A stretch of 45,164 nucleotides of DNA from Actinomycetes bacterium (GCA_021810705.1 JAJZID010000001.1:1-45164); one strand, 5' to 3'; counted from the first letter of the stretch, positions 122-26,580 are shown. The notes: generated by a model not told the origin, from the letters alone. Translations and numbers: made by a program.

Positions 122-189
122 AACGGCAACTTCCTTCCCGAGGGCCAAAACCCTCGCTCAAAAGTCTCCGTGAAACCCGGCCTGCCTCA
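1..189 (-). mobile_element. IS3-family (IS6110/IS51-like) insertion sequence, left end; continues beyond the window start
   Basis: Minus strand from 189 reads TGAGGCAGGCCGGGTTTCACGGAGACTT, resembling IS6110-type terminal IRs (TG...CCGG...CGGAGACT), and is followed by an OrfA-like frame. Confidence 0.8.
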
Positions 190-401
190 GACCGGACCGT
201 CCGCCCATGACGCCACCTCACACCGGTCTTACGATCAACACCAACCTGCCGGCACGCCTCGCTGTTGCTCACACCCGCAGCGATCAGCACAGCCCAACGA
301 GCCCGCTTCTCAGCCTGCGGCGCCGGCCCCGGTGACCGTCTCTCTCCTGACATCGCGACCCCCAAACCGTGATGGTGTTGCGACGATCACTCGAATCCGC
401 C
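190..401 (-). mobile_element. IS30-family element left end with transposase N-terminus (ATG at 353), interrupted by the IS3 element
   Basis: Terminal sequence GGCGGATTCGAGTGATCGTCGCAACACC (401->374, minus) resembles actinobacterial IS30-family ends; protein GVSNSEACRQVGVDRKTGVRWRHGR is the HTH-like N-terminus; the frame runs into the IS3 IR at 189. Confidence 0.7.
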
Positions 402-423
402 CCGTCACGGTGGGGCCAAGCGA

Positions 424-796
424 AGTCGTCGTTCTCAAGAACCGGCGAGGGCAGCATTTCGTCAGCTTCTTGCCGGCGATCAGCAACGACGCCGCCACAG
501 CCCTCCGCCAAGAGATCCGATCCTGGCGGATCAACGTGCACAGCGATAAGACCCTCGATGAGATCGCGTCGTTCATCAACCCGATCGTGCATGGGTGGTG
601 CAGCTACTACGGGCGCTTCTACAAGTCCTGGTTGCATCGCTCGCTACGGCAGATCAACGAGTACCTGATTCGTTGGGCTCGCAGGAAATACAAACGGTTG
701 CGGACCAGCGCCCGCAGGGCCTGGCGATGGCTACGCGGAGTTCAACACCGCGCGCCAGAACTATTCGCTCACTGGGCGTTCGGTTCCGTCGCCTGA
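424..796 (+). pseudogene. ltrA: Group II intron reverse transcriptase/maturase, C-terminal (domain X) fragment
   Basis: KNRRGQHFVSFLPAIS...INPIVHGWCSYYGRFYKS...YLIRWARRKYKRL...PELFAHW is domain X of class-D-like intron-encoded proteins; RT core (YADD) is absent from the window. Confidence 0.85.
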
Positions 797-7739: not shown

Positions 7740-8404
7740 CCCGGATGTGCCGCCACGACGACGTACTGGAAGGCGAGGAGTTCGGGAAAGACCCAGCGGG
7801 CGAGTGTCGCGTTGGAGATGCGTGTGGCCACCGCGCCGAGGCGCCCGATCTCCGACTGATCTTCGATCAGGCGATGGTTACGACCGATTTCGATTAGCTC
7901 CAAGCCATTGTGCTTGACGAACTGCTCGACGCTGTAGCGCGTGAAGACACGGAGATGTGTGCGGTCGCGGACACCTGCATCGGTGTAGCTCCAGCGATCG
8001 ACGATCAGCCGCAGCAGAACCGAGTAGAAGCGCCAGTTTGGAACGCTGATGATCACGCGGCCCTTCGGTTTCAGGAACGGCAGGCAACGCTGGAGCGCCG
8101 CGTCAGGGTCAGGCAGGTGCTCAAGCACGTCAGCGAACAGCAGGTAGTCGAACTCACTGTGAGCAAATGGCAGGTCGGCGTCCACGACGCTGCCTGCCAC
8201 AAGCAGGTCCAAGCGGCGGCGAGCCACCTCCGCAGATGGGGCGTGGAGCTCGATTCCTGCGACGTACGCCGCGCCGTCCGCCTTCAACCCCGCCCCGAGG
8301 ACGCCTTCGCCACAGCCGACGTCGAGGATGCGTGCTCCGTCGGCTTGCACGAGGCGTCGTATTTCGGGACGCGGATCCGAGTAGTAGGGGTATTTACCGG
8401 GCAT
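7736..8404 (-). CDS. Class I SAM-dependent methyltransferase
   Basis: ILDVGCGEG, DVLEHL, ISVPN, DRTHLRVFT; probable start MPGKYPYY at 8404. Confidence 0.85.
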   Translation of the reverse strand: MPGKYPYYSDPRPEIRRLVQADGARILDVGCGEGVLGAGLKADGAAYVAGIELHAPSAEVARRRLDLLVAGSVVDADLPFAHSEFDYLLFADVLEHLPDPDAALQRCLPFLKPKGRVIISVPNWRFYSVLLRLIVDRWSYTDAGVRDRTHLRVFTRYSVEQFVKHNGLELIEIGRNHRLIEDQSEIGRLGAVATRISNATLARWVFPELLAFQYVVVAAHPG

Positions 8405-11246
8405 CGCGCGGCTGCACAAGCAGGGAAAGCAGAGCCTTCAGTGATGTTGTATAGCCGGGAACCATCGAGCGGAACCGTGCAGCGTCGGCTCCCTGCATCA
8501 GGCCCCGCGTACGGTAGTAGAGCAGCCTGCTTGCTGTGGCAAGGATGAGGATGGCAAGGTAAACGGCCGCATCCGCGTCGCTGTAGCGCTCGGCAACCAT
8601 GGCGCGCTGGGCGCCAATTGAGATCGCCGTGCGCCGCGTGTCGTCGATCCACTTGTCGGTGCTCGCATGGTTCTGGTGAAGCACCGTAGCGTCTGGAAAA
8701 TACCTTACGCGCCAGCCGTGCTCTTGAATCCGGTAGCACCACTCGATGTCCTCTCCGTACATGAAGATCTCTTCGGCAAAACCGCCCGTCTCCTCGAATA
8801 CTTCGCGCGGCAGCAGCATGAACGCTCCAGCCACGGAGTCGACGTCGCGCTCGTAGTTCTGCTCCCAGTACCCGCCGAGCAGGTTCTCTCTGACACGTGC
8901 GGGAGCGAGCTTGCTCAGCCCGACGTTGTCAAGCAGAGCAAGCTTCACGCTCGGGAAGCGATACGTCGTGTACTGGAGCCCGCCGTCGGGTGAAACTAGG
9001 CGGCAGTGTGCGACCCCGAGCGTCCGGTCGTCCTGGATCCTGCGCCAGAGCGTGGCGACAGAGCCGTCGATCAGCTTCGCGTCGCTGTTGAGCAGCAGGA
9101 ACCAGCGGCCGCGCGCCACTCCCATGCCCTGGTTGTTCGCGCGGCCGAAGCCGACGTTCTCGGAGTTGCGGATCAGCCGCACGTGCGGAAACTCAGAGGC
9201 GATCATCTCCTGGCTGCCGTCGGCAGAGGCGTTGTCGACCACGATCACCTCATGCGCGGCAGAGCTCAGGTGATCCTCGAGCGATCGCAGCGCCGCCCGG
9301 GTGAGTTCAGCCGTGTTCCAGCTGACTATCACCACTGAAAGATCTGGTGCTGAGCGGATCTCCACCGCTGCGGCGGTTGAAGACGGGGCGGGCCCGAGCC
9401 ACCTCTGGGCCCACACCTCGAAGCTGTAGAGCATCATTACTGCGGGAACGAGCGAGGTCTCGCCCGCCAGGCAGCGACGGACGGTGCGCGTGACGGCGTC
9501 TGGATCGAAGACGCCGCGTTCTCCGACTGCCTGTCTGGTGAGGGTGTCGGCGACCTCGTCGCCGAGTTCGCCTGCAAGCCAGGTCGCCAGCGGTGGGGAG
9601 AACCCACGCTTGATTGCGCTGGTTGGGTCCGCAAGCCTGGCGTCTGCTATATCGCGCAGCAGCAGCTTGCCCTTGCGCCAGCGCATCTTGTGGGTGGCGG
9701 GAATGGCCAGCGCACGCTCCACGAGGCGGTGGTCCAAGAACGGCACGCGAAGCTCAAGCGAGCTGAGCATCGACATCGCGTCGGATGCGCGCAGCAGCTC
9801 ATTGGGGAGGTAGGTCTTAAGGTACAGGTACAGAAGGCGGTTGAGCGGCGTGCGTGCCTGTGCGCGCGCCAGATGTTCGACGAGGTAGGTCACCGGCCCG
9901 GATAGGTCGACCATGTCGACCATATCCGCGCTGAGCAACTCGGAGCGCAGTTGCGCAGAGGTCTGGTGGAACAACTCGTGAGTGACCCGCTCATCGGTCG
10001 ACATCGCAGCAAGCTCGCTCAACCGCTGAAAACGGTGCCAAGGCGTAAGCGTTGAAACCTCGTGAATCACACGGCGCGCAGGGGCAGGCACAGCGTCAAG
10101 CCTTGCGAGGACGTTGGCCGCCACGTGGGTTGGGTAGGCTGCAAAGAGCTCGTCGCCGCCGAGGCCAGACAGGGCGACGGTCACATGCTGGCGCGCGAAC
10201 TGTGAGACGAAATGTGTCTGGACTAGCGATTGGCCGGGCTCGTCGTAGAGCTCGACGAGGGAGCGCAGCGCCGCGGCGCCGGCATTGCTGCCCATCTCGG
10301 CTTCATGGTGGCGGGTTCCGAGGCTGCGCGCGATCGCCCTTGCTGCCGGTCGCTCGTCGTAGTCGGGATCGTCAAAGCCCAGCGTGAAGGTCTCAAGCTC
10401 CGGGTCGGCGCGGGCGGCGTAGGTTGCGAGCAGGCGCGAGTCAACTCCGCCCGAGAGCAGCACCCCGAGCGGTACATCGCTGACCATCGTGCGGCGCACG
10501 GAGTCCTCGAGCATGCCGCTGATCTCATGCACGTACGCCGCGCGGCCCCGGTCCGGCTCTTCGCGCACCGCGCAGTCCCAGTACTCGTACGCCCTCGGAC
10601 CATCCGGGGAGAGAACCATCGCGTGGCCGGCCGGCAGCCGTCTGATGTCCTCGAAGAGGCTCAGCGGCTCCGGAACCGCGAAGGCGGAGAGGTAGTGCGG
10701 CAGCGCGGTGGGGTCAAGCCTCGGCTCGATCAAGCCAGACGCGAGCAGAGCTTTGATCTCGGAGGCGAACACCACCGCGCCGGGAAGCAGCGCGTACACC
10801 AGCGGCTTTATGCCCAGCCGGTCGCGGGCAAGGAAGACGGCCCGCCGCTCCCGGTCCCAGACAGCAAAGGCCCACATGCCGTCCAGATGCTCGAGCACAT
10901 CGGGGCCCCACTGGGCGTAGCCGCGCACGACTACCTCGGTGTCGCAGCTGGTGTGAAACCTGTGCCCGAGCGTCTCCAGCCTGCGGCGCAGCGCCACGGT
11001 GTTGAACAGCTCTCCGTTGTAGACGATCGTGAAGGCGCCGTCGGCCACCGTGATCGGCTGGGCGCCGCCTTGGACATCGATTACGGCCAAGCGGCGGCTG
11101 ACCATCCCCAGCGAGGGCTGCCCCTGATCGATGAAGAATCCCTCTCCGTCGGGGCCGCGGTGGGCGATCGCGTCTCCCATCCGCTTGAGCATGTGGTGCT
11201 CGATCGGCCGGCCGTCGACTGCGTAGATGCCCGCGATCCCGCACAT
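8394..11246 (-). CDS. asnB: AsnB-like glutamine amidotransferase fused to a C-terminal GT2 glycosyltransferase
   Basis: Start MCGIAG at 11246 (Ntn Cys), HRGPD, NGE, LSGGVDS, GGDELF, ELRVPFLD; then SVVIVSWN, VDNASAD, GFGRANN, LLNSD, AGAFML, YGED in the same frame. Confidence 0.9.
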   Translation of the reverse strand: MCGIAGIYAVDGRPIEHHMLKRMGDAIAHRGPDGEGFFIDQGQPSLGMVSRRLAVIDVQGGAQPITVADGAFTIVYNGELFNTVALRRRLETLGHRFHTSCDTEVVVRGYAQWGPDVLEHLDGMWAFAVWDRERRAVFLARDRLGIKPLVYALLPGAVVFASEIKALLASGLIEPRLDPTALPHYLSAFAVPEPLSLFEDIRRLPAGHAMVLSPDGPRAYEYWDCAVREEPDRGRAAYVHEISGMLEDSVRRTMVSDVPLGVLLSGGVDSRLLATYAARADPELETFTLGFDDPDYDERPAARAIARSLGTRHHEAEMGSNAGAAALRSLVELYDEPGQSLVQTHFVSQFARQHVTVALSGLGGDELFAAYPTHVAANVLARLDAVPAPARRVIHEVSTLTPWHRFQRLSELAAMSTDERVTHELFHQTSAQLRSELLSADMVDMVDLSGPVTYLVEHLARAQARTPLNRLLYLYLKTYLPNELLRASDAMSMLSSLELRVPFLDHRLVERALAIPATHKMRWRKGKLLLRDIADARLADPTSAIKRGFSPPLATWLAGELGDEVADTLTRQAVGERGVFDPDAVTRTVRRCLAGETSLVPAVMMLYSFEVWAQRWLGPAPSSTAAAVEIRSAPDLSVVIVSWNTAELTRAALRSLEDHLSSAAHEVIVVDNASADGSQEMIASEFPHVRLIRNSENVGFGRANNQGMGVARGRWFLLLNSDAKLIDGSVATLWRRIQDDRTLGVAHCRLVSPDGGLQYTTYRFPSVKLALLDNVGLSKLAPARVRENLLGGYWEQNYERDVDSVAGAFMLLPREVFEETGGFAEEIFMYGEDIEWCYRIQEHGWRVRYFPDATVLHQNHASTDKWIDDTRRTAISIGAQRAMVAERYSDADAAVYLAILILATASRLLYYRTRGLMQGADAARFRSMVPGYTTSLKALLSLLVQPRDAR

Positions 11247-11318
11247 GCTGGCCCGGAGCATACGGCCTCTCCGGGGCAGGAAAGGCCACATGTCGCTCCC
11301 GTCGCTATCGTCGCTCGC

Positions 11319-13196
11319 GTGTGCGGCATCTGCGGAGCGGTCCAGGAACAGCCGGATTCGCTTGTCGAGCATGTCCGCGGCCAACTAAGGACCCAGCGCC
11401 ACCGCGGGCCTGACGCCGAGGGCTGGTTCGAGGGAGGCCACGGTGTCGTCGCCCAGAACCGACTATCAATCATCGACCTGGTCACCGGCGACCCGCCGAT
11501 GACCAGCGAGGACGCCACGATCGGTGCCGTCCTGAACGGCGAGATCTACAACTTCCGGGACCTGCGTGACGAGCTTCTCCGTGAGGGTCACACGCTCTCA
11601 TCACACGGTGACACGGAGGTACTGGCGCACCTCGCGGAGAGCCGTGAAGCTGTCGCGGTCGCCCGCAAGCTTGACGGCATGTTCGCCTTCGCCGTGTGGG
11701 ATCGCACCAGGCGGCGGTTGCTGCTGGGACGCGACCGGATGGGCAAAAAGCCGCTTTACTACTGGGCCTCGCAGGGCACGTTCGTGTTCGCCTCAGAGAT
11801 CAAGGGCGTGCTAGCGCATCCCGCGGTGCCGCGAGAGCTCAACCGGCGCGCGCTTGATGCGTATCTCACGTTCGGATACGTCCCGACTCCGGAGACCTTC
11901 TTCGCTGGCGTCAAGAGTCTGCCACCAGCACACGTGCTAACGCTCGAGCTTGGCCATGAGCCCAAGCTCGAGCGCTACTGGCACATGGCGGTTCCCGGGT
12001 TCGGGAGCGACGCCGCACGGCTGGACATCGATATGCACGCCGCCGCCAGTGAGCTGCGCAGGCTGCTTGAGGCAGCTATCCGCAAGCGCCTGGTTGCCGA
12101 CGTCCCGGTCGGGGCGTTTCTGAGCGGTGGGATAGACTCCAGCGCGATCGTGGCGATGATGGCTGGCGTCATGGGGGAGCCGGTCAAGACGTTCACGATC
12201 GGATTTGACGACCGCGATGGCTTTGACGAGCGCCCGTTTGCGCGCACGGTCGCTGAGCGTTTCACAACCGAGCATCACGAGCGGGTCGCGCGCCCAGAGA
12301 CGGTGGAGCTGGTCGAGCGCCTGGTGCATCATCACGATCAGCCCTTCGGCGACTCGAGCGCGGTTCCGACGTTCCTGCTCAATGAGCTCGCCCGCGAGCA
12401 CGTCACCGTCGCACTATCAGGCGACGGTGGCGACGAGCTCTTTGCGGGCTATGAGCGTTTCGCCGCTGGGGTCGCCGTTGACACGGTGCGGCGGATTCCT
12501 GCTCCAGTCCGCGCTGCCGGCCGCCGCCTGCTCGGCCAGCTTCCGGCGGCGAGCTTGCGTGGCCGCGTGGGACGCGCGCAGCGCTTCGCCGCGCAGGTTG
12601 AGCAGGGCATGCCCTACGCCTACCTCGAATGGATCAGCTTCGTGCCCGAGCCTTGGCGGCAGCGCCTGTTGGCCAGCCCAGATCCGTGGGCTCGCACCGA
12701 CTACGCCCGGCAATGGCATGCCAGCGCCGGGGCACGGACGCTAGATCGCCTTCTGCAGCTGAACATGGACACCTACCTCGTCGACGATCTGTTGGTCAAG
12801 ATGGACAGGACGAGCATGGCCCACGGCCTAGAGGTGCGCTCACCGTTCCTGGATACGGAGCTCATCGAGTTTGCGGCGCGATTGCCACCGCACCTGAAGG
12901 TCAGGGGCCTCTCGCTCAAGCGGGTGCTCAAGCACGCGGTCTCCGACCTGCTCCCTGCTGAGATCCTGCAGCGGCCCAAGCGCGGCTTCGGGGTGCCGCT
13001 TGATCGCTGGTTCAGGGAGGATCTCGAAAGCTACACACAGGGGATGCTGGGCCCTGGGGCGCGGCTGCGTGAGCACATACGTCCTGAGGCGTTGGATGCA
13101 TTGCTGGAGGAGCATCGCAGCGGAGCGAGCCGTCATGGGCATGCGCTCTGGACGCTCCTCACGCTCGAGCTGTTCCTGCGTCGCAATGGGTGGTAG
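11319..13196 (+). CDS. asnB: AsnB-like glutamine amidotransferase (second paralog)
   Basis: True start GTG at 11319 gives MCGICG; HRGPD, NGEIYN, LSGGIDSS, SGDGGDELFAGY, EVRSPFLD, KRGF. Confidence 0.9.
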   Translation: MCGICGAVQEQPDSLVEHVRGQLRTQRHRGPDAEGWFEGGHGVVAQNRLSIIDLVTGDPPMTSEDATIGAVLNGEIYNFRDLRDELLREGHTLSSHGDTEVLAHLAESREAVAVARKLDGMFAFAVWDRTRRRLLLGRDRMGKKPLYYWASQGTFVFASEIKGVLAHPAVPRELNRRALDAYLTFGYVPTPETFFAGVKSLPPAHVLTLELGHEPKLERYWHMAVPGFGSDAARLDIDMHAAASELRRLLEAAIRKRLVADVPVGAFLSGGIDSSAIVAMMAGVMGEPVKTFTIGFDDRDGFDERPFARTVAERFTTEHHERVARPETVELVERLVHHHDQPFGDSSAVPTFLLNELAREHVTVALSGDGGDELFAGYERFAAGVAVDTVRRIPAPVRAAGRRLLGQLPAASLRGRVGRAQRFAAQVEQGMPYAYLEWISFVPEPWRQRLLASPDPWARTDYARQWHASAGARTLDRLLQLNMDTYLVDDLLVKMDRTSMAHGLEVRSPFLDTELIEFAARLPPHLKVRGLSLKRVLKHAVSDLLPAEILQRPKRGFGVPLDRWFREDLESYTQGMLGPGARLREHIRPEALDALLEEHRSGASRHGHALWTLLTLELFLRRNGW

Positions 13197-21840: not shown

Positions 21841-22665
21841 GTGGACGGCGCGGGCGCATCAAGAACAACGGTGGTCATCCCGGTGTGGGGGCGCTATGTC
21901 GGAATTCGCTTCGCCCAGGCGCTGGAAAGCGTCGCATCCCAGGATCTCCAGGCGCCGGTAGTGGTGGTGGACAACGCCTCCGAGGTTCCGCTGCCGCCGC
22001 TCGGTCGGGCACGGGTTCTGCGGACTGCGACCCGGCTGACGCTGGGGCGGGCGCGTAACCTCGGTCTGGATCAGGTGCAGACGCCGAACGTCGTTTTCTG
22101 GGACGCGGACGACCTGATGCCGCCGGGCACGCTCTCCTTCATGCAGGAGTCGCTTGAGTCCGACTCGCGCCTGGTGGCGTTCGGGATGGCGCTCGCTGAG
22201 GATCCGGGTGGCAAGCGTCACCGCTGGCCCCGTAGGTGGGTCGCGAGGCTCGTTCGCTACCCGCGCGCGCTGGCGATCTTAAACAGTGTTTGGTCGGTCT
22301 TCCCGGCCAACGGCCCGGTGATCATGCGCACCGATACCGTGCGGGCGTGCGGCGGCTTCGGGAGTGCGGCCACGGGCGATGATTGCGTGCTGGGTGCTGC
22401 CCTGCTGTTTCGCGGGCGCGTCGGTTGGAGCGAGCGAACCGGGTGTCTGTATCTGCTGCACGAAGGGTCCAATCGGGATGAGAACTCGAGCGTCCGCACG
22501 CTGCTGATGAATGCGCGCCATGTGCGAGTGCGTCTGCGCTCCGGGCCAGGGACCCCCGCTTGGGTGCGTCGCATCGTGCCGTTGATCGCCTCAGCGCAGT
22601 GGGCGGCGGTTGCTGGGCACCTGGCGGTGGCTGCGCTGCGCCGGCTCAAGAGCCGCGCGGCGTGA
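21841..22665 (+). CDS. Glycosyltransferase family 2
   Basis: VVIPVW, VVVVDNAS, ARNLG, FWDADD; probable GTG start at 21841. Confidence 0.85.
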   Translation: MDGAGASRTTVVIPVWGRYVGIRFAQALESVASQDLQAPVVVVDNASEVPLPPLGRARVLRTATRLTLGRARNLGLDQVQTPNVVFWDADDLMPPGTLSFMQESLESDSRLVAFGMALAEDPGGKRHRWPRRWVARLVRYPRALAILNSVWSVFPANGPVIMRTDTVRACGGFGSAATGDDCVLGAALLFRGRVGWSERTGCLYLLHEGSNRDENSSVRTLLMNARHVRVRLRSGPGTPAWVRRIVPLIASAQWAAVAGHLAVAALRRLKSRAA

Positions 22666-23203
22666 AGCGCCGCCGCAGTACATAGCCGAGTGCGCAGGCG
22701 GTAAGCGCGGCCAGTGAAACCGGGAGCACGAGGCCTAGCCCGTCTATGTCTGATCCACCCAGCAGTTGACCGACGCCAGCCAGCGCTGACCCGGCTGGCG
22801 CCTTCACGGCGGTGCCGGGACGGGGCGGCAAGCTGGCTTTGGCTGGTGGCAACCGGGTCGGCGTCGGGCTGGGCGCCGTCTGAAGCGCGAACTGAGCAGC
22901 CGCACTGCCCTGCGTGCCGAGCTTCGTCAGCTTCTTGATGCCCAACTTCCCAGCGCCGAGCTTCGAGATCTGCGCGGCTGTGGTGTTACCGCCTCCGCTC
23001 GACGGCGGCGCGACGTTGCCGCCAGCCGACGGAATGACCTCGGCGTATTCATTGGCGCCGGCTTTGCCAGGAGGATCGTAGACCTTAGTCTTGCCGGCGA
23101 ACGCGGGAACGGCGAGTGTGAGCCATGCGGTGACCACCAAGATCAGGACGAAAGCTCGGCTGCGGATGCACGTATGGTAGGACGTGGATGTTTCCCGCTT
23201 CAT
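22646..23203 (-). CDS. Secreted, C-terminally membrane-anchored low-complexity (P/A/G/S/T) protein
   Basis: ATG at 23203 overlaps the upstream stop (ATGA); signal peptide ending VPAFA; C-terminal TM helix followed by RRR. Confidence 0.7.
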   Translation of the reverse strand: MKRETSTSYHTCIRSRAFVLILVVTAWLTLAVPAFAGKTKVYDPPGKAGANEYAEVIPSAGGNVAPPSSGGGNTTAAQISKLGAGKLGIKKLTKLGTQGSAAAQFALQTAPSPTPTRLPPAKASLPPRPGTAVKAPAGSALAGVGQLLGGSDIDGLGLVLPVSLAALTACALGYVLRRRFTPRGS

Positions 23204-25206
23204 CCGCCGAACAGCGTTGATGTTGGATAGAGCAGCCGGGCACGCTGGTAGTCGGCTAGGGCCCTGACTGGGTGGTCGAGTTCGGTCTCGATCCGCGCCG
23301 CCGTCAGCCACAGGGTGTAGTTGTCGGGCTCGTGCTTGACAGCGATGCTGATCTCGTGCGCTGCGTTCGGAATGTCGTCTGCCTGCTCATACACCAATGC
23401 CGCCTGCAGAAATGGCGCCGCGGCTCCGGGCTCGACCGCTGCCGCGTTGCGGGCATCAGCAAGAGCGATGCGGAGCTTGCCAGCACGCTCCGCGGCCTGG
23501 CTTGCGCGCACCTCAATCGTGCTGGTCAGCGGAATCACGATCAGCACGATCGCAAGCAGCGCCGCCGCCACGGCTGCAGTTCTGCCTGCGACATTGCGCC
23601 AGCGGCGAGGGCCATTGGCCGCAGAACTCGCTGAGCGCCGGCGCGCTGCGCCGAAGACGACAGCCACGAGCAGCATCGTGACCATCGGCACGACCCCGAT
23701 CTGCCAGACCCAGTCAAACGAGGCAGCGCCGATGAACGCGACGACCGCAGCAGTTGCTGCGGCAATCAGCGCTCGCTCCGGCTCGGTGTGCTGCAGCGAG
23801 CGCGCCGCTCCGAACGCAACCACCGCGCCGAAGAACGCCGCGATCAGCAGCCAGCCGACGATCCCCGTCTCCGCCAGCGTCTCAAACCACAGCGAGTGTG
23901 CGTTCAGGACGAACTCAGCGTGCGCCGGCGTCGTGTGCGCCTGCCAGTAGTAGCGGTATGTGCCAGGTCCGATGCCGTGGATGGGGCTGCTCAAGAACGC
24001 CCGCCAGGCGACCTGCCAGTACTGGTAGCGGTGGCTTCCGGCGAGTGACAGCAGCCGGCTGTACTGGCTTGTGCCACGCGAAGGATTCCACTGTTTGAAC
24101 TGGGAGAAGAGACGTCCCACGGTGCCGCTGGCGGCTGCTGCCACCACCACGATCGCCACCGCCCCGATGATCGCGACGGTCACCCGCTGCGCGCCCCGGC
24201 GCGAGAACTCGAGCCAGCGCGGGCGTCTTGCGCGACGCATCACAAGCGCGAGCAGAAACTGGAGCACAGCCACTGCGGCCATCACCACGACCAGGAGGAG
24301 CAGCATCGAGTGCCGTTGCGCCGGCGGTGCCGCGGCGATCGAATCGCGCAGCGCCGGCCGGTCAAGCAGCGCCACCATCAGTACGGCGATGCCCAAACCG
24401 CTGAGCGCCAGTGTCACGAGGCGCGGAATGCGGTCTGGCATCAGCGCCACGAAGACGACGAGCGCCAGCGCCGCGGCCAGGATGCCGCCGCGCGAGACGG
24501 TCATAGCCAGGCACAGGAGCACGGGCTGAAGCAGCCCCGCCGCGCCAGCGCGCACCCAGAGGTTGCGCGCGTCACTTGCCATGTAGAGCAGCAGCGGGAC
24601 TGCGAGCGCCGCGTACTCGCCGACGCCGTCGGCATAGTCAAACGGGTAGCTGAGTCTTGCGGTCGCGTAGAAGCTGCTGGCCGCGTTGGAGGGGAAGAGG
24701 CTGGGTGTGAGCTTCGAGAGGACCGCAAGCAGGCTGACAGCTGCGATTCCGCAGGCGAGCCCGCCAACCAGGGCGCGCGCGTTGTCTGCACGTACGGCGC
24801 AGAGGCCGAGCACCAGCACGCCGAGGTAGGTCGACACGCGACAGACCTGGTCCAGCGTGCGCTGGTGGCTGGTGGTCCACGACAGGCCAGTCCATGTCCA
24901 GAGCAGAAAGCCCGCCAGGAGCGCAGCCGCGATCCAGCCGGCACCGGGGATGTTGGCGCGCGGCAGTGCGCCCACGAGCACGCCCAGCAGCACCAGCCAC
25001 CACACAACGAGCCCGATTTCGCTGCGCGCGACGATGTCGTAGCCACCACCCGAAAGCGCCAGATAGATGCTCAGCGCCAGCGCCCCAGCGAATGTGAGCA
25101 GACTGCGGGCGCTGTTCGCGCGTCCGCGAGCAGCGCCCGTGCCGAGCAGCACCGGTGTTGCCGGTGCATCCGCAGCGTCAGCCATCTGCCCGCTCGTACT
25201 GCCCAC
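23200..25206 (-). CDS. O-antigen ligase-like (Wzy_C/WaaL) membrane protein with C-terminal TPR-like helices
   Basis: RLSYPFDYAD, TVSRGG, HRYQYW, HGIGPGTY, NAHSLWFETLAETG; TPR-like tail. Confidence 0.8.
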   Translation of the reverse strand: MGSTSGQMADAADAPATPVLLGTGAARGRANSARSLLTFAGALALSIYLALSGGGYDIVARSEIGLVVWWLVLLGVLVGALPRANIPGAGWIAAALLAGFLLWTWTGLSWTTSHQRTLDQVCRVSTYLGVLVLGLCAVRADNARALVGGLACGIAAVSLLAVLSKLTPSLFPSNAASSFYATARLSYPFDYADGVGEYAALAVPLLLYMASDARNLWVRAGAAGLLQPVLLCLAMTVSRGGILAAALALVVFVALMPDRIPRLVTLALSGLGIAVLMVALLDRPALRDSIAAAPPAQRHSMLLLLVVVMAAVAVLQFLLALVMRRARRPRWLEFSRRGAQRVTVAIIGAVAIVVVAAAASGTVGRLFSQFKQWNPSRGTSQYSRLLSLAGSHRYQYWQVAWRAFLSSPIHGIGPGTYRYYWQAHTTPAHAEFVLNAHSLWFETLAETGIVGWLLIAAFFGAVVAFGAARSLQHTEPERALIAAATAAVVAFIGAASFDWVWQIGVVPMVTMLLVAVVFGAARRRSASSAANGPRRWRNVAGRTAAVAAALLAIVLIVIPLTSTIEVRASQAAERAGKLRIALADARNAAAVEPGAAAPFLQAALVYEQADDIPNAAHEISIAVKHEPDNYTLWLTAARIETELDHPVRALADYQRARLLYPTSTLFGG

Positions 25207-25289: not shown

Positions 25290-25769
25290 GTGAAATTGCG
25301 CAAAGCCATCTCGACGGTTGTGGTCTTCTGTGCGTTTATAGCTGGGGCCTCGGGCGTTGCGATGGCTGCTGGCACGCACACTGGCACGCACACCGGGAAA
25401 CACGTCAAGCCGGTACGCTGCGGGACTCTGTATTCGCCGCCGTGCGGTAAGCCGCACATCACCAACCGAGCGCCGAGCGCGAAGTGCGTGAACAGTGGCA
25501 CCAGATATACGCTGCCGCTGCTGCGCTTCACCTCAAACGCCGGTATCCGTCGGATCCAGATCCGCATGGGTAGGAAGATTCTGCGCACGATTCGGTTCAA
25601 GGGCCGCGGGCCTGTGCGCTGGATCGTCAAGGGCTTCAAGATCCCGACGCTCGCGCTCGGCTCGGGAGGCCATGCGCTCACGATCCGGGTGACAGACGTC
25701 AAGGGTCGCTCCGTGAGCAAGACGCTGCACTTTGCGGTCTGCGTCTCGACGCCCGTGTTCACCGGCTGA
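25290..25769 (+). CDS. Secreted basic Ig-like protein ending in -PVFTG
   Basis: GTG at 25290 after G-rich SD-like AGGGGG; signal peptide MKLRK...GVAMA; beta-strand pattern GGHALTIRVTDVKGR; four mature Cys. Confidence 0.7.
   Translation: MKLRKAISTVVVFCAFIAGASGVAMAAGTHTGTHTGKHVKPVRCGTLYSPPCGKPHITNRAPSAKCVNSGTRYTLPLLRFTSNAGIRRIQIRMGRKILRTIRFKGRGPVRWIVKGFKIPTLALGSGGHALTIRVTDVKGRSVSKTLHFAVCVSTPVFTG
25369..25392 (+). repeat. 12-bp tandem duplication (CTGGCACGCACA x2) encoding GTHT-GTHT
   Basis: Read directly from the sequence. Confidence 0.7.
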
Positions 25770-25770
25770 G

Positions 25771-26580
25771 ATGGCGCAGGCGCCGGCAGGTGGGGCCCCT
25801 CACGCTGACTGGAATGGGGTCCGTGCGCCGCAGCGCACGGACCCGGCAACGGCTCGAGTCAGGACGCTCGCAGCGTCTGTGGCGCTCATGGCGGCCGTCG
25901 CGCTCGCGCTTGTCGGGGCGGTAAGCGCCCGAGCAGCGAACCCCCGTGGCGCTGCGAAGAACCCCTATGACGTGATCACACGCTTCGCGGTTGCGAACGT
26001 GCAGAAGCCGATCTACCAGCAGCCGAACGTGCATTCGCGAGTGGTTAACAAGCTGAGCTTCTACACAACCGACACCGAGGCGCTTCAGACCTACCGCTTC
26101 ATCGCCGCAAAGCGGGTCCACGGAGTACTTTGGGAGCACATCGACGTGCCGATGCGCCCCAACGGCCAGACTGGCTGGGTCAAGCGTGCCTGGCTTGGTC
26201 CGGTGAAGACCGCGGACACGCTGATCATCGTCAAGCGCCGGCTCGAGCGTCTGTGGGTCTACCGACGCGGCGTGATGATCTTCACCTCGCCGGTCGGTGT
26301 CGGCAACTGGGCAAGCGGCTGGGCGACGCCACCAGGGCACTTCTGGATCGATCAAGGGTTCACGTCAACCGACCCGTTCTACGGACCGTGGGCCTTTGGC
26401 ACCACCGACTTCTCCAACGACACGCAGTTCCCGGACGGCTCGATCGTCGGCATCCACGGCACCAATGCGCCGTGGCTGATTCCGGGTGATCCGTCTCACG
26501 GTTGCGTACGCCTGCAGGACCCGGAGATCCTCAAGCTCAAGCCGTTGGTCGGCATCGGCACAGCGGTTTGGATCGAGTAG
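25771..26580 (+). CDS. L,D-transpeptidase (YkuD family), secreted or membrane-tethered
   Basis: VGVG...TPPG, GIHGTN...SHGCVRL catalytic His/Cys motif; N-terminal hydrophobic segment; RPNGQTGWV SH3-like part; ATG 1 nt after the upstream stop. Confidence 0.9.
   Translation: MAQAPAGGAPHADWNGVRAPQRTDPATARVRTLAASVALMAAVALALVGAVSARAANPRGAAKNPYDVITRFAVANVQKPIYQQPNVHSRVVNKLSFYTTDTEALQTYRFIAAKRVHGVLWEHIDVPMRPNGQTGWVKRAWLGPVKTADTLIIVKRRLERLWVYRRGVMIFTSPVGVGNWASGWATPPGHFWIDQGFTSTDPFYGPWAFGTTDFSNDTQFPDGSIVGIHGTNAPWLIPGDPSHGCVRLQDPEILKLKPLVGIGTAVWIE

What the first reader, a model, noticed from the sequence alone, without database searches (positions are those of the whole stretch)
25290..26580. Secreted protein ending in -PVFTG coupled to an L,D-transpeptidase: candidate sortase-independent wall-anchoring system
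Seen: a signal-peptide, Ig-like protein whose last residues are CVSTPVFTG-stop, with no TM helix or basic tail after the motif. A YkuD-family Ldt with intact H...SHGC starts 1 nt after its stop. Established: sortases cut LPxTG between T and G but need a TM plus basic tail; Ldts release a C-terminal D-Ala via an acyl-Cys, and some attach proteins such as Lpp to peptidoglycan. Inference: a free terminal Gly is achiral and could mimic D-Ala, so this Ldt may remove Gly from PxFTG and ligate the protein to a peptidoglycan amine or another protein. That would use the protein as acyl donor, the reverse of Lpp anchoring.
Basis: partly seen in the sequence, partly recalled or inferred. Interest (0 to 1): 0.85.

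Follow-up and report, generated by a model that had tools for sequence, protein, structure and literature searches.

The report
Anchorless FTG tag with dedicated transpeptidase
Many unrelated exported proteins of these little-studied actinobacteria end exactly in a short tag (mostly Pro-x-Phe-Thr-Gly) and sit beside one subfamily of cell-wall cross-linking enzymes, which likely clip off the last glycine and fasten the protein to the wall, an untested and apparently undescribed alternative to sortase.

Summary
Observation confirmed. A 159-aa secreted Ig-like protein ends in PVFTG-stop, and an SH3b+YkuD L,D-transpeptidase with intact His/Cys follows 1 nt later. All 28 homologues keep PVFTG. The tail is a general C-terminal signal on at least a dozen unrelated exported families. 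In 61 relatives, 21 of 34 close Ldt homologues lie within 500 nt of a PxFTG-stop (Trp-codon control: 0 of 87). At 119 loci picked by the enzyme alone, 40 of 49 upstream frames ending hydrophobic-Thr-x end in Gly. Terminal Ala was not found on real genes. Five near-complete genomes carry tagged proteins and this Ldt, and no sortase was found in them. Against: the wider Ldt family also occurs without tails; one cargo extends six residues past FTG; co-folding gave only weak support; no biochemistry exists. Best reading (0.55): the Ldt cuts Thr|Gly, with Gly in the D-Ala position, and ligates the protein to a wall amine, probably mDAP. Not found in print in 10 searches. This scan noted the same system earlier on three other genomes.

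The parts
25290..25769 (+). Gene for a 159-aa secreted Ig-like cargo protein with four conserved Cys, ending PVFTG-stop
25290..25367 (+). Predicted Sec signal peptide (basic start, hydrophobic core, A-M-A cleavage site)
   Evidence: read from the sequence; conserved hydrophobic N-terminus in homologues; no predictor run
25455..25742 (+). Beta-sandwich (Ig/PKD/FnIII-like) domain
   Evidence: AlphaFold model strands 20-115; Foldseek
25752..25769 (+). C-terminal sorting tag P-V-F-T-G plus stop codon; coil in the model
25771..26580 (+). Secreted SH3b+YkuD L,D-transpeptidase-family gene (start may be 25885)
25972..26208 (+). SH3b/GW-like N-terminal domain of the Ldt (likely wall- or peptide-binding)
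   Evidence: VIA-align Z 9.6 to 4krt, Z 8.6-8.7 to GW domains 1m9s/4epc over model residues 14-92
26212..26577 (+). YkuD catalytic domain; His at 26455-26457, Cys at 26503-26505
23200..25206 (-). Divergent O-antigen-ligase-like (Wzy_C + TPR) gene; conserved neighbour of this cargo subfamily only, context rather than a shown part
   Evidence: same order in G002, G008, G017 and L016
26652..27800 (-). Convergent secreted glycoside-hydrolase-like gene; conserved neighbour, context only
   Evidence: weak PF00150 match E 0.052; similar ORF downstream in L002-L004

Best explanation
PVFTG-stop is a membrane-anchor-free C-terminal tag shared by unrelated exported proteins and genetically coupled to an SH3b+YkuD L,D-transpeptidase subfamily, which likely cuts it between Thr and the terminal Gly and would ligate the protein to a cell-wall amine, most likely meso-diaminopimelate. 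Shown: the tag; its terminal position; its spread over unrelated cargos; its coupling to the enzyme; the intact catalytic His/Cys; the domain architecture. Inferred: (1) cargo and enzyme are exported by Sec or Tat; (2) the achiral terminal Gly-COO- takes the place of the D-Ala leaving group, and the catalytic Cys forms a thioester with the cargo's Thr; (3) the SH3b domain and/or a basic or Pro/Thr-rich linker hold the partners at the wall; (4) a peptidoglycan amine resolves the thioester. Operon pairs like this window would be dedicated systems; lone enzymes in genomes with many tagged proteins would be housekeeping.
For: PVFTG is invariant in 28 of 28 homologues; 15 of them have a duplicated domain and only the last copy carries VFTG. 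Adjacency: 21 of 34 close Ldt hits lie within 500 nt of a PxFTG-stop, against 0 of 87 for the PxFTG-Trp control. In a class-wide draw, 12 of the top 23 have the tag directly upstream, and 4 of 6 fetched remainders carry PAFTG, PRYTG or KPKATG. Enzyme-picked loci: 32 of 32 upstream F[TA]x ends are Gly (98 loci); 40 of 49 hydrophobic-T-x ends are Gly, against 112 of 661 frames overall. None of 6 PxFTA-stops is a real secreted gene. Cargos are unrelated: 43 of 56 have Pfam hits (ferritin-like, DUF11/SpaA, Big, ice-binding, GH5, GH31, peptidases S8/S9/S15, lipase). An N-terminal hydrophobic segment occurs in 83 of 103 tagged ORFs against 130 of 338 controls, and a TM-like C-terminus in only 3 of 105. 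No sortase was found in five 91-96% complete genomes that have tagged proteins and this Ldt. Four genomes of family f33 have 10-24 tags (controls 0-2), and this enzyme is their only PF03734 gene found. In G045 the enzyme reads SDPC instead of SHGC and no PxFTG-stop was found. Precedent: DpaA removes terminal Gly from mDAP-Gly (PMC8263019); Ldts exchange D-Ala for Gly (PMC10434034); Solirubrobacterales walls contain mDAP (PMC3035278). Co-folding gave weak support: 0.46 against a best control of 0.00; runs agree in at least 76% of contacts; partner pLDDT at least 83. That mark was reached by 116 of 157 solved and 2 of 215 mismatched pairs, but at 0.60 or under by only 18 solved and by both mismatches.
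Against: No biochemical evidence. Described Ldts use a peptidoglycan stem as donor and the protein as acceptor (PMC12729407 Fig. 1 legend); Thr preceded by Phe is unlike mDAP. The wider SH3b-YkuD family often has no tag nearby: family f24 has it in 16 of 17 genomes, yet no tag lay at any of 18 fetched loci and only 2 of 17 genomes had a PxFTG-TGA/TAA match. A subfamily in f16 likewise has none. The tag-linked label changes 10 times on a quick tree, so linked enzymes are not one clade. One real cargo upstream of a close Ldt ends PAFTG-RAATTR (L268). A few tagged proteins show no signal peptide (two ubiquitin-like, one PqqD-like, one 2Fe-2S). Sortases are present in 48 of 61 relatives and in all four f33 genomes. 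The co-fold returned no contacts, so it does not show the tail in the active site. Genomes are kin, so counts are not independent.
Confidence: 0.55

Rival explanations
1. Same Thr|Gly cleavage, but the acceptor is a protein amine (a Lys side chain or the mature N-terminus of the next cargo), so small Ig-like cargos would be polymerised into pilus- or S-layer-like chains, as class C sortases do.
For: One-cargo-one-enzyme operons recur, with two paralogous pairs in each of G001, G007, G008, G016, G020, G034 and G055. The cargo here is a single Ig-like domain; others carry SpaA/DUF11 domains.
Against: No Lys is conserved in the cargo's invariant columns. Many cargos are hydrolases or ferritin-like proteins. 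The SH3b domain resembles wall-binding modules.
Confidence: 0.15
2. The tag is a non-covalent docking peptide (for example for the SH3b domain). The Ldt makes ordinary 3-3 cross-links, or attaches the cargo as acceptor through its N-terminus, as for beta-barrel proteins.
For: Donor and acceptor roles would match all described Ldts. SH3 folds bind Pro-containing peptides (recalled). The L268 cargo extends past FTG.
Against: It does not explain why the last residue is Gly and not Ala. A Lpp-like C-terminal Lys acceptor is unlikely: 58 of 105 tails have no Lys in the last 15 residues and 41 none in the last 30.
Confidence: 0.13
3. The Ldt removes the Gly, but water (DpaA-like carboxypeptidase maturation) or a non-peptidoglycan amine (amino sugar of an exopolysaccharide, or a lipid) resolves the intermediate.
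For: DpaA is a YkuD-family Gly carboxypeptidase. This pair sits beside an O-antigen-ligase-like gene at the edge of a polysaccharide cluster, as exosortase systems do (bioRxiv 2023.06.07.544157).
Against: The ligase neighbour was seen only for this cargo subfamily. Plain hydrolysis gives no evident benefit to dozens of unrelated cargos. The closest solved relative is the transpeptidase YkuD, while DpaA ranks 24th.
Confidence: 0.11
4. The tag is a truncated LPxTG/LAxTG-type signal read by a sortase or another protease, and the Ldt linkage reflects shared history only.
For: The motif ends in T-G like sortase signals (recalled); sortase is present in 48 of 61 relatives and in f33.
Against: No TM or basic tail. 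No sortase found in G040, G046, G049, G053 or G057. At least six unrelated cargo families each have their own adjacent Ldt.
Confidence: 0.06

Closest known systems
Sortase / LPxTG-LAxTG cell-wall sorting (PF04203; classes A, C, E)
   Same: C-terminal signal ending in Thr-Gly on unrelated exported proteins; Cys/His transpeptidase; dedicated operon pairs and many-to-one use. The T|G cut and thioester chemistry are recalled for sortase and inferred here.
   Different: No hydrophobic helix or basic tail; Gly is the free C-terminus; the partner is a YkuD-fold enzyme; no sortase found in five tag-bearing genomes.
Ldt-mediated protein anchoring (E. coli LdtA-C with Lpp; beta-barrel proteins via N-terminal Gly/Ala)
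   Same: YkuD catalytic domain with intact His/Cys; a protein-peptidoglycan link is the proposed product.
   Different: There the protein is the acceptor and the tetrapeptide the donor (PMC12729407). Here the conserved feature is a C-terminal carboxylate with no conserved Lys, so the protein could only be the donor. The host is a monoderm actinobacterium.
DpaA (LdtF/YafK), YkuD-family amidase / mDAP-Gly carboxypeptidase
   Same: YkuD-family enzyme that removes a terminal Gly and not D-Ala (PMC8263019).
   Different: It hydrolyses peptidoglycan substrates and is structurally more distant (Z 8.4 against 15.1 for YkuD).
Bacillus subtilis YkuD (PDB 1Y7M, 4A1I)
   Same: Best sequence and Foldseek match of the catalytic domain (E 5e-24; E 2e-9).
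   Different: The N-terminal domain here is SH3b/GW-like; YkuD has LysM (recalled); no coupled cargo.
Tripartite CTERM systems (PEP-CTERM/exosortase, GlyGly-CTERM, MYXO-CTERM)
   Same: Short C-terminal motif, many copies per genome, signal peptides, unrelated cargos; choice-of-anchor Q domains in some cargos; exopolysaccharide-locus context.
   Different: Those signals have motif + TM + basic cluster and are read by intramembrane proteases; this one has neither.

Membership tests
YkuD-family L,D-transpeptidase | YkuD domain above the Pfam cut-off | tested here: met
   PF03734 67.2 bits against a cut-off of 23.4
YkuD-family L,D-transpeptidase | Catalytic His...S-x-G-C motif and fold | tested here: met
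   His and Cys invariant in 112 aligned sequences; Z 15-16 to solved Ldts
YkuD-family L,D-transpeptidase | Uses a tetrapeptide stem as acyl donor | not testable with these tools
   needs an enzyme assay
Sortase-dependent LPxTG/LAxTG sorting | Motif followed by a TM helix and basic tail | tested here: not met
   stop follows Gly directly; TM-like C-terminus in 3 of 105 tails, all borderline
Sortase-dependent LPxTG/LAxTG sorting | Cognate sortase (PF04203) in the genome | tested here: inconclusive
   not found in this 70% complete genome or in five 91-96% complete tag-bearing genomes, but present in 48 of 61 relatives and in f33
Lpp-type Ldt anchoring | Conserved C-terminal Lys as acceptor | tested here: not met
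   no Lys in the last 15 residues of this cargo or of 58 of 105 tails
Beta-barrel-type Ldt anchoring | Mature N-terminal Gly/Ala as acceptor | not tested
   mature N-termini were not predicted systematically; Ala is likely for this cargo
Tripartite CTERM sorting signals | Motif + TM + Arg cluster, read by an intramembrane protease | tested here: not met
   no NCBIfam sorting-domain hit on this cargo or on 16 other tagged proteins
C-terminal protein-sorting signal (general criteria) | At the C-terminus, several per genome, on unrelated signal-peptide proteins | tested here: met

The most novel reading that the evidence does not exclude
A second, independently evolved sortase: an L,D-transpeptidase subfamily has swapped donor and acceptor roles. 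It reads a soluble five-residue tag whose achiral Gly mimics D-Ala, and it anchors or polymerises folded Sec and Tat cargos on the wall across several classes of Actinomycetota. This would also be a new minimal-tag peptide ligase that accepts a free C-terminal Gly.
Probability: 0.6. Interest if true: 0.92.

Novelty: new variant of a known kind. Interest (0 to 1): 0.8.

Why it matters
It would add a third route for covalent protein display, after sortases and acceptor-type Ldt anchoring. It would be the first case of a YkuD enzyme taking a ribosomally made protein as acyl donor, and the first T-G sorting signal that needs no membrane anchor. It would assign a location to hundreds of secreted enzymes and adhesins in abundant but poorly studied deep-branching actinobacteria. 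It also suggests a ligase for proteins that end in a native Gly. The test is cheap: a small soluble enzyme, a pentapeptide and MS. A named strain, Conexibacter sp. S30A1, encodes a member of the same 90% cluster as a 97% identical homologue (WP_249020847.1).

Tried and rejected
Pfam and NCBIfam gave no family for the cargo and no sorting-domain model for the tail. The first control, 0 of 53 weaker Ldts near PxFTG, overstates specificity: several weaker Ldts have Pro-less xxFTG or FAG tails upstream. A basic stretch as part of the signal was rejected as universal: tails in family f33 and others are Pro/Thr-rich and acidic. The pattern missed Ala by my error and was redone. PxF[SA]G-stop in the five tag-rich genomes: 4 sites fetched, none a secreted gene. 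PxFTG plus one residue: 4 of 8 fetched look like cytoplasmic enoyl-CoA hydratases (family recalled from the motif, not scanned), none secreted. Gly173 and Pro152 separate linked from unlinked enzymes (94% and 86% against 0 of 34), but I do not count this: the unlinked set is three clades, B. subtilis YkuD also has this Gly, and tag-rich f33 enzymes have Ala. A scan of the named-genome collection could not run because the alignment was too diverse. No sigma-70 promoter or terminator match. The PorH/ProtX preprint (passages) points to arabinogalactan and is not a precedent. The careful tree did not finish; the quick tree was used.

Full report
OBSERVATION. The window holds a 159-aa ORF at 25290-25769 (+) that ends CVSTPVFTG-stop. 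One base later an ATG opens a 269-aa ORF to 26580. The second protein matches Pfam YkuD (E 3.2e-18) and has IHG...SHGC intact. Its AlphaFold model (pLDDT 94.2) shows an SH3b/GW-like domain (model residues 14-92; Z 8.5-9.6 to endolysin, autolysin and internalin SH3-like domains) and a YkuD catalytic domain (94-215; Z up to 16.6). Its closest solved relative by sequence and Foldseek is B. subtilis YkuD. The first protein has no Pfam or NCBIfam match. It models as a beta-sandwich with a coil tail and weakly matches PKD/FnIII/Ig domains. Homologues of the Ldt are labelled Solirubrobacteraceae and Conexibacter sp. S30A1 by their sources, so the host is inferred to belong to Solirubrobacterales.

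THE TAIL IS CONSERVED AND TERMINAL. All 28 homologues end in PVFTG, at 50-91% identity. Fifteen carry a tandem duplication of the domain, and only the last copy has VFTG. Three congeneric genomes have diverged copies (31-38% identity) ending PIFTG, PVFTG and PPFTG, each followed by the Ldt. Three of four metagenome loci show the same order; the fourth is cut inside the cargo.

THE TAIL IS A GENERAL SIGNAL. A DNA pattern for PxFTG followed by a stop or by Trp gave 91 stop and 55 Trp sites in 61 genomes. I fetched the surroundings of nearly all stop sites outside the window. Of 80 frames ending in PxFTG, 56 were at least 150 aa and the rest mostly short shadow frames. Of the 56, 43 had Pfam hits in unrelated families: 11 ferritin-like, DUF11/DUF7507/SpaA, Big domains, ice-binding, TIL, PKD, GH5, GH31, peptidases S8, S9 and S15, lipase, pentapeptide repeat and 2Fe-2S. 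Over 105 distinct tails (mostly selected by the motif, so position counts are circular), 3 have a borderline hydrophobic C-terminus. A crude N-terminal hydrophobicity test is met by 83 of 103 complete tagged ORFs and by 130 of 338 control ORFs. In a phylum draw of 301 genomes, four genomes of family f33 have 24, 21, 22 and 10 sites against 0-2 for the reversed control. From 17 regions fetched there, 22 tagged ORFs were recovered; their linkers are Pro/Thr-rich and acidic, so the basic stretch seen in Solirubrobacterales is not part of the core signal. Two carry choice-of-anchor Q domains, which typically precede sorting signals (recalled).

COUPLING TO THE ENZYME. In the 61 genomes, 21 of 34 Ldt hits of 80 bits or more lie within 500 nt of a PxFTG-stop (20 on the same strand, upstream) and 24 lie within 5 kb. 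None of 53 weaker hits does, and none of 87 lies near a PxFTG-Trp control. The 26 genomes with such an enzyme hold 75 stop sites against 27 controls; the other 35 hold 16 against 28. The 0 of 53 is too clean: weaker sister enzymes have Pro-less xxFTG or FAG tails upstream. In a class draw of 151 genomes, 12 of the top 23 enzyme hits had the tag directly upstream and 14 within 2 kb (three of these genomes had been used in the profile). Of six remaining loci fetched, four had PAFTG, PRYTG (twice) or KPKATG, one had nothing, and one had a real cargo ending PAFTG-RAATTR. Other loci showed PPVTG, PPLTG, GLTG and PTLTG. The least biased test uses loci picked by the enzyme alone. At 98 loci, all 32 upstream frames ending F[TA]x end in Gly. 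At 119 loci, 40 of 49 frames ending hydrophobic-T-x end in Gly, while Gly ends 112 of 661 frames overall; the nine others are 40-151 aa. In five tag-rich genomes, none of six PxFTA-stop sites is a real secreted gene. The signal is therefore P-x-hydrophobic-(T/A)-G-COOH, with Gly the most fixed position.

NOT A SORTASE SUBSTRATE, AT LEAST IN SOME GENOMES. PF04203 was found in 48 of 61 genomes, but not in G040, G046, G049, G053 or G057 (91-96% complete). Each of these encodes two to four tagged proteins and this Ldt. G045, of the same genus as four of them, has an enzyme with SDPC in place of SHGC and no PxFTG-stop; this is a single case. In the four f33 genomes the family member is the only PF03734 gene found, but they do have sortases.

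RESULTS AGAINST. The wider SH3b-YkuD family is not tag-specific. It was found in 80 of 301 phylum genomes. Family f24 has it in 16 of 17 genomes, with no tag at 18 fetched loci and background-level patterns. A subfamily in f16, beside an Fpg/Nei-like gene (family recalled from its zinc-finger end), has none either. On a quick IQ-TREE tree of 110 enzymes the label changes 10 times (35 when shuffled). The window's enzyme lies in a branch of 37 rows (SH-aLRT 96), of which 28 were labelled linked; two more proved linked on inspection (L182 cut by the locus edge, L071 with PTLTG). Some tagged proteins show no signal peptide. Co-folding of enzyme and cargo gave weak support only: 0.46 against a best control of 0.00, runs agreeing in at least 76% of contacts, partner pLDDT at least 83. 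At 0.60 or under, the mark was reached by 18 of 157 solved complexes and by both of the 2 (of 215) mismatches that passed, and no contacts were returned. All counts come from related genomes and are not independent, although at least six unrelated cargo families each have an adjacent enzyme.

MECHANISM. Ldts attack the bond before a terminal D-Ala, form a Cys thioester and transfer the acyl group to an amine; they also exchange D-Ala for Gly (PMC10434034, passages). In described protein attachments the protein is the acceptor (PMC12729407, passages and Fig. 1 legend). DpaA, a YkuD-family enzyme, removes terminal Gly but not D-Ala from stems (PMC8263019, passages). LdtGo shows that the donor residue can change to L-Ala (bioRxiv 2023.10.31.564931, abstract). 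A ribosomal protein cannot end in a D-residue, and Gly is the only residue that fits a D-site (established stereochemistry). The tail has no amine, and 58 of 105 tails lack Lys in the last 15 residues, so a covalent role makes the cargo the donor. The likeliest acceptor is mDAP, the diamino acid of Solirubrobacterales walls (PMC3035278, passage). I put this at 0.55, polymerisation onto protein amines at 0.15, non-covalent docking at 0.13, hydrolysis or a non-peptidoglycan acceptor at 0.11, and a sortase or other reader at 0.06. How an unanchored cargo is caught before it diffuses away is unexplained.

WHAT IS KNOWN. It works like sortase but fails the membership test (no TM, no basic tail, different enzyme). 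It is a YkuD enzyme by domain and motif, with donor specificity untested. Ten literature searches found no description of the tag or of a protein-donor Ldt; 'PxFTG' and 'FTG motif' had no occurrences in any listed paper. A paper on C-terminal sorting signals has no mention of FTG or YkuD (bioRxiv 2023.06.07.544157, passages). The library lacks most subscription papers, and supplements were not read. After I had recorded my own reading, the scan's index showed three earlier AI notes on the same system in other genomes; they are not counted as evidence. Claims that touch unpublished genomes: the tallies include some, and two rows of the tree do (L183, L190); no conclusion depends on them.

VERDICT. 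The signal and its coupling to the enzyme are real and strong; the chemistry is inferred. Interest 0.8.

Noticed in passing
window 22646-23311 (-); L016 3327-4703 (-): Secreted protein ending in a G-x-G-x-x-L-P motif, a hydrophobic helix and an Arg-rich tail, conserved in L016 next to the O-antigen-ligase-like gene. It looks like a separate tripartite C-terminal sorting signal; no Pfam or NCBIfam hit.
   Followed up: partly
window 985-25206: Large polysaccharide cluster (ABC transporter, many glycosyltransferases, two asparagine-synthase-like amidotransferases, Wzz/kinase-like, Wzy-like, Wzy_C ligase) directly upstream of the pair, echoing exosortase loci. Names read from translations except Wzy_C.
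   Followed up: no
L254 2858-3607 and 3576-4322 (G164): Two tandem proteins with an N-terminal ubiquitin-like domain and no signal peptide, ending PNFTG and PGFTG; nearby in the same genome a PqqD-like protein also ends PTFTG.
   Followed up: partly
L132 4416-5018 (G034): A [2Fe-2S] small subunit without an evident signal peptide ends PPSFTG; it may be co-exported with a Tat partner.
   Followed up: no
L102, L104, L106, L109, L117, L121, L125, L145, L149, L152, L157: Ferritin-like (PF13668) proteins, several with twin-Arg-like leaders, carry the tag; ten of these eleven sit directly upstream of their own Ldt subclade.
   Followed up: partly
L164, L165, L169, L171: Cytoplasmic enoyl-CoA-hydratase-like proteins end ...KRxPxFTG plus one residue, a look-alike that can give false positives in motif scans.
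   Followed up: partly
L196, L200, L202, L207, L231, L233, L234, L236, L240 (family f16): A tag-free subfamily of the same Ldt family sits consistently downstream of an Fpg/Nei-like DNA glycosylase gene.
   Followed up: no
window 170-796 (+): C-terminal remnant resembling a group II intron reverse transcriptase/maturase (read from the translation).
   Followed up: no
window 8394-13196 (-): Two overlapping long ORFs encode asparagine-synthase-like amidotransferases, one fused to a glycosyltransferase-like domain.
   Followed up: no
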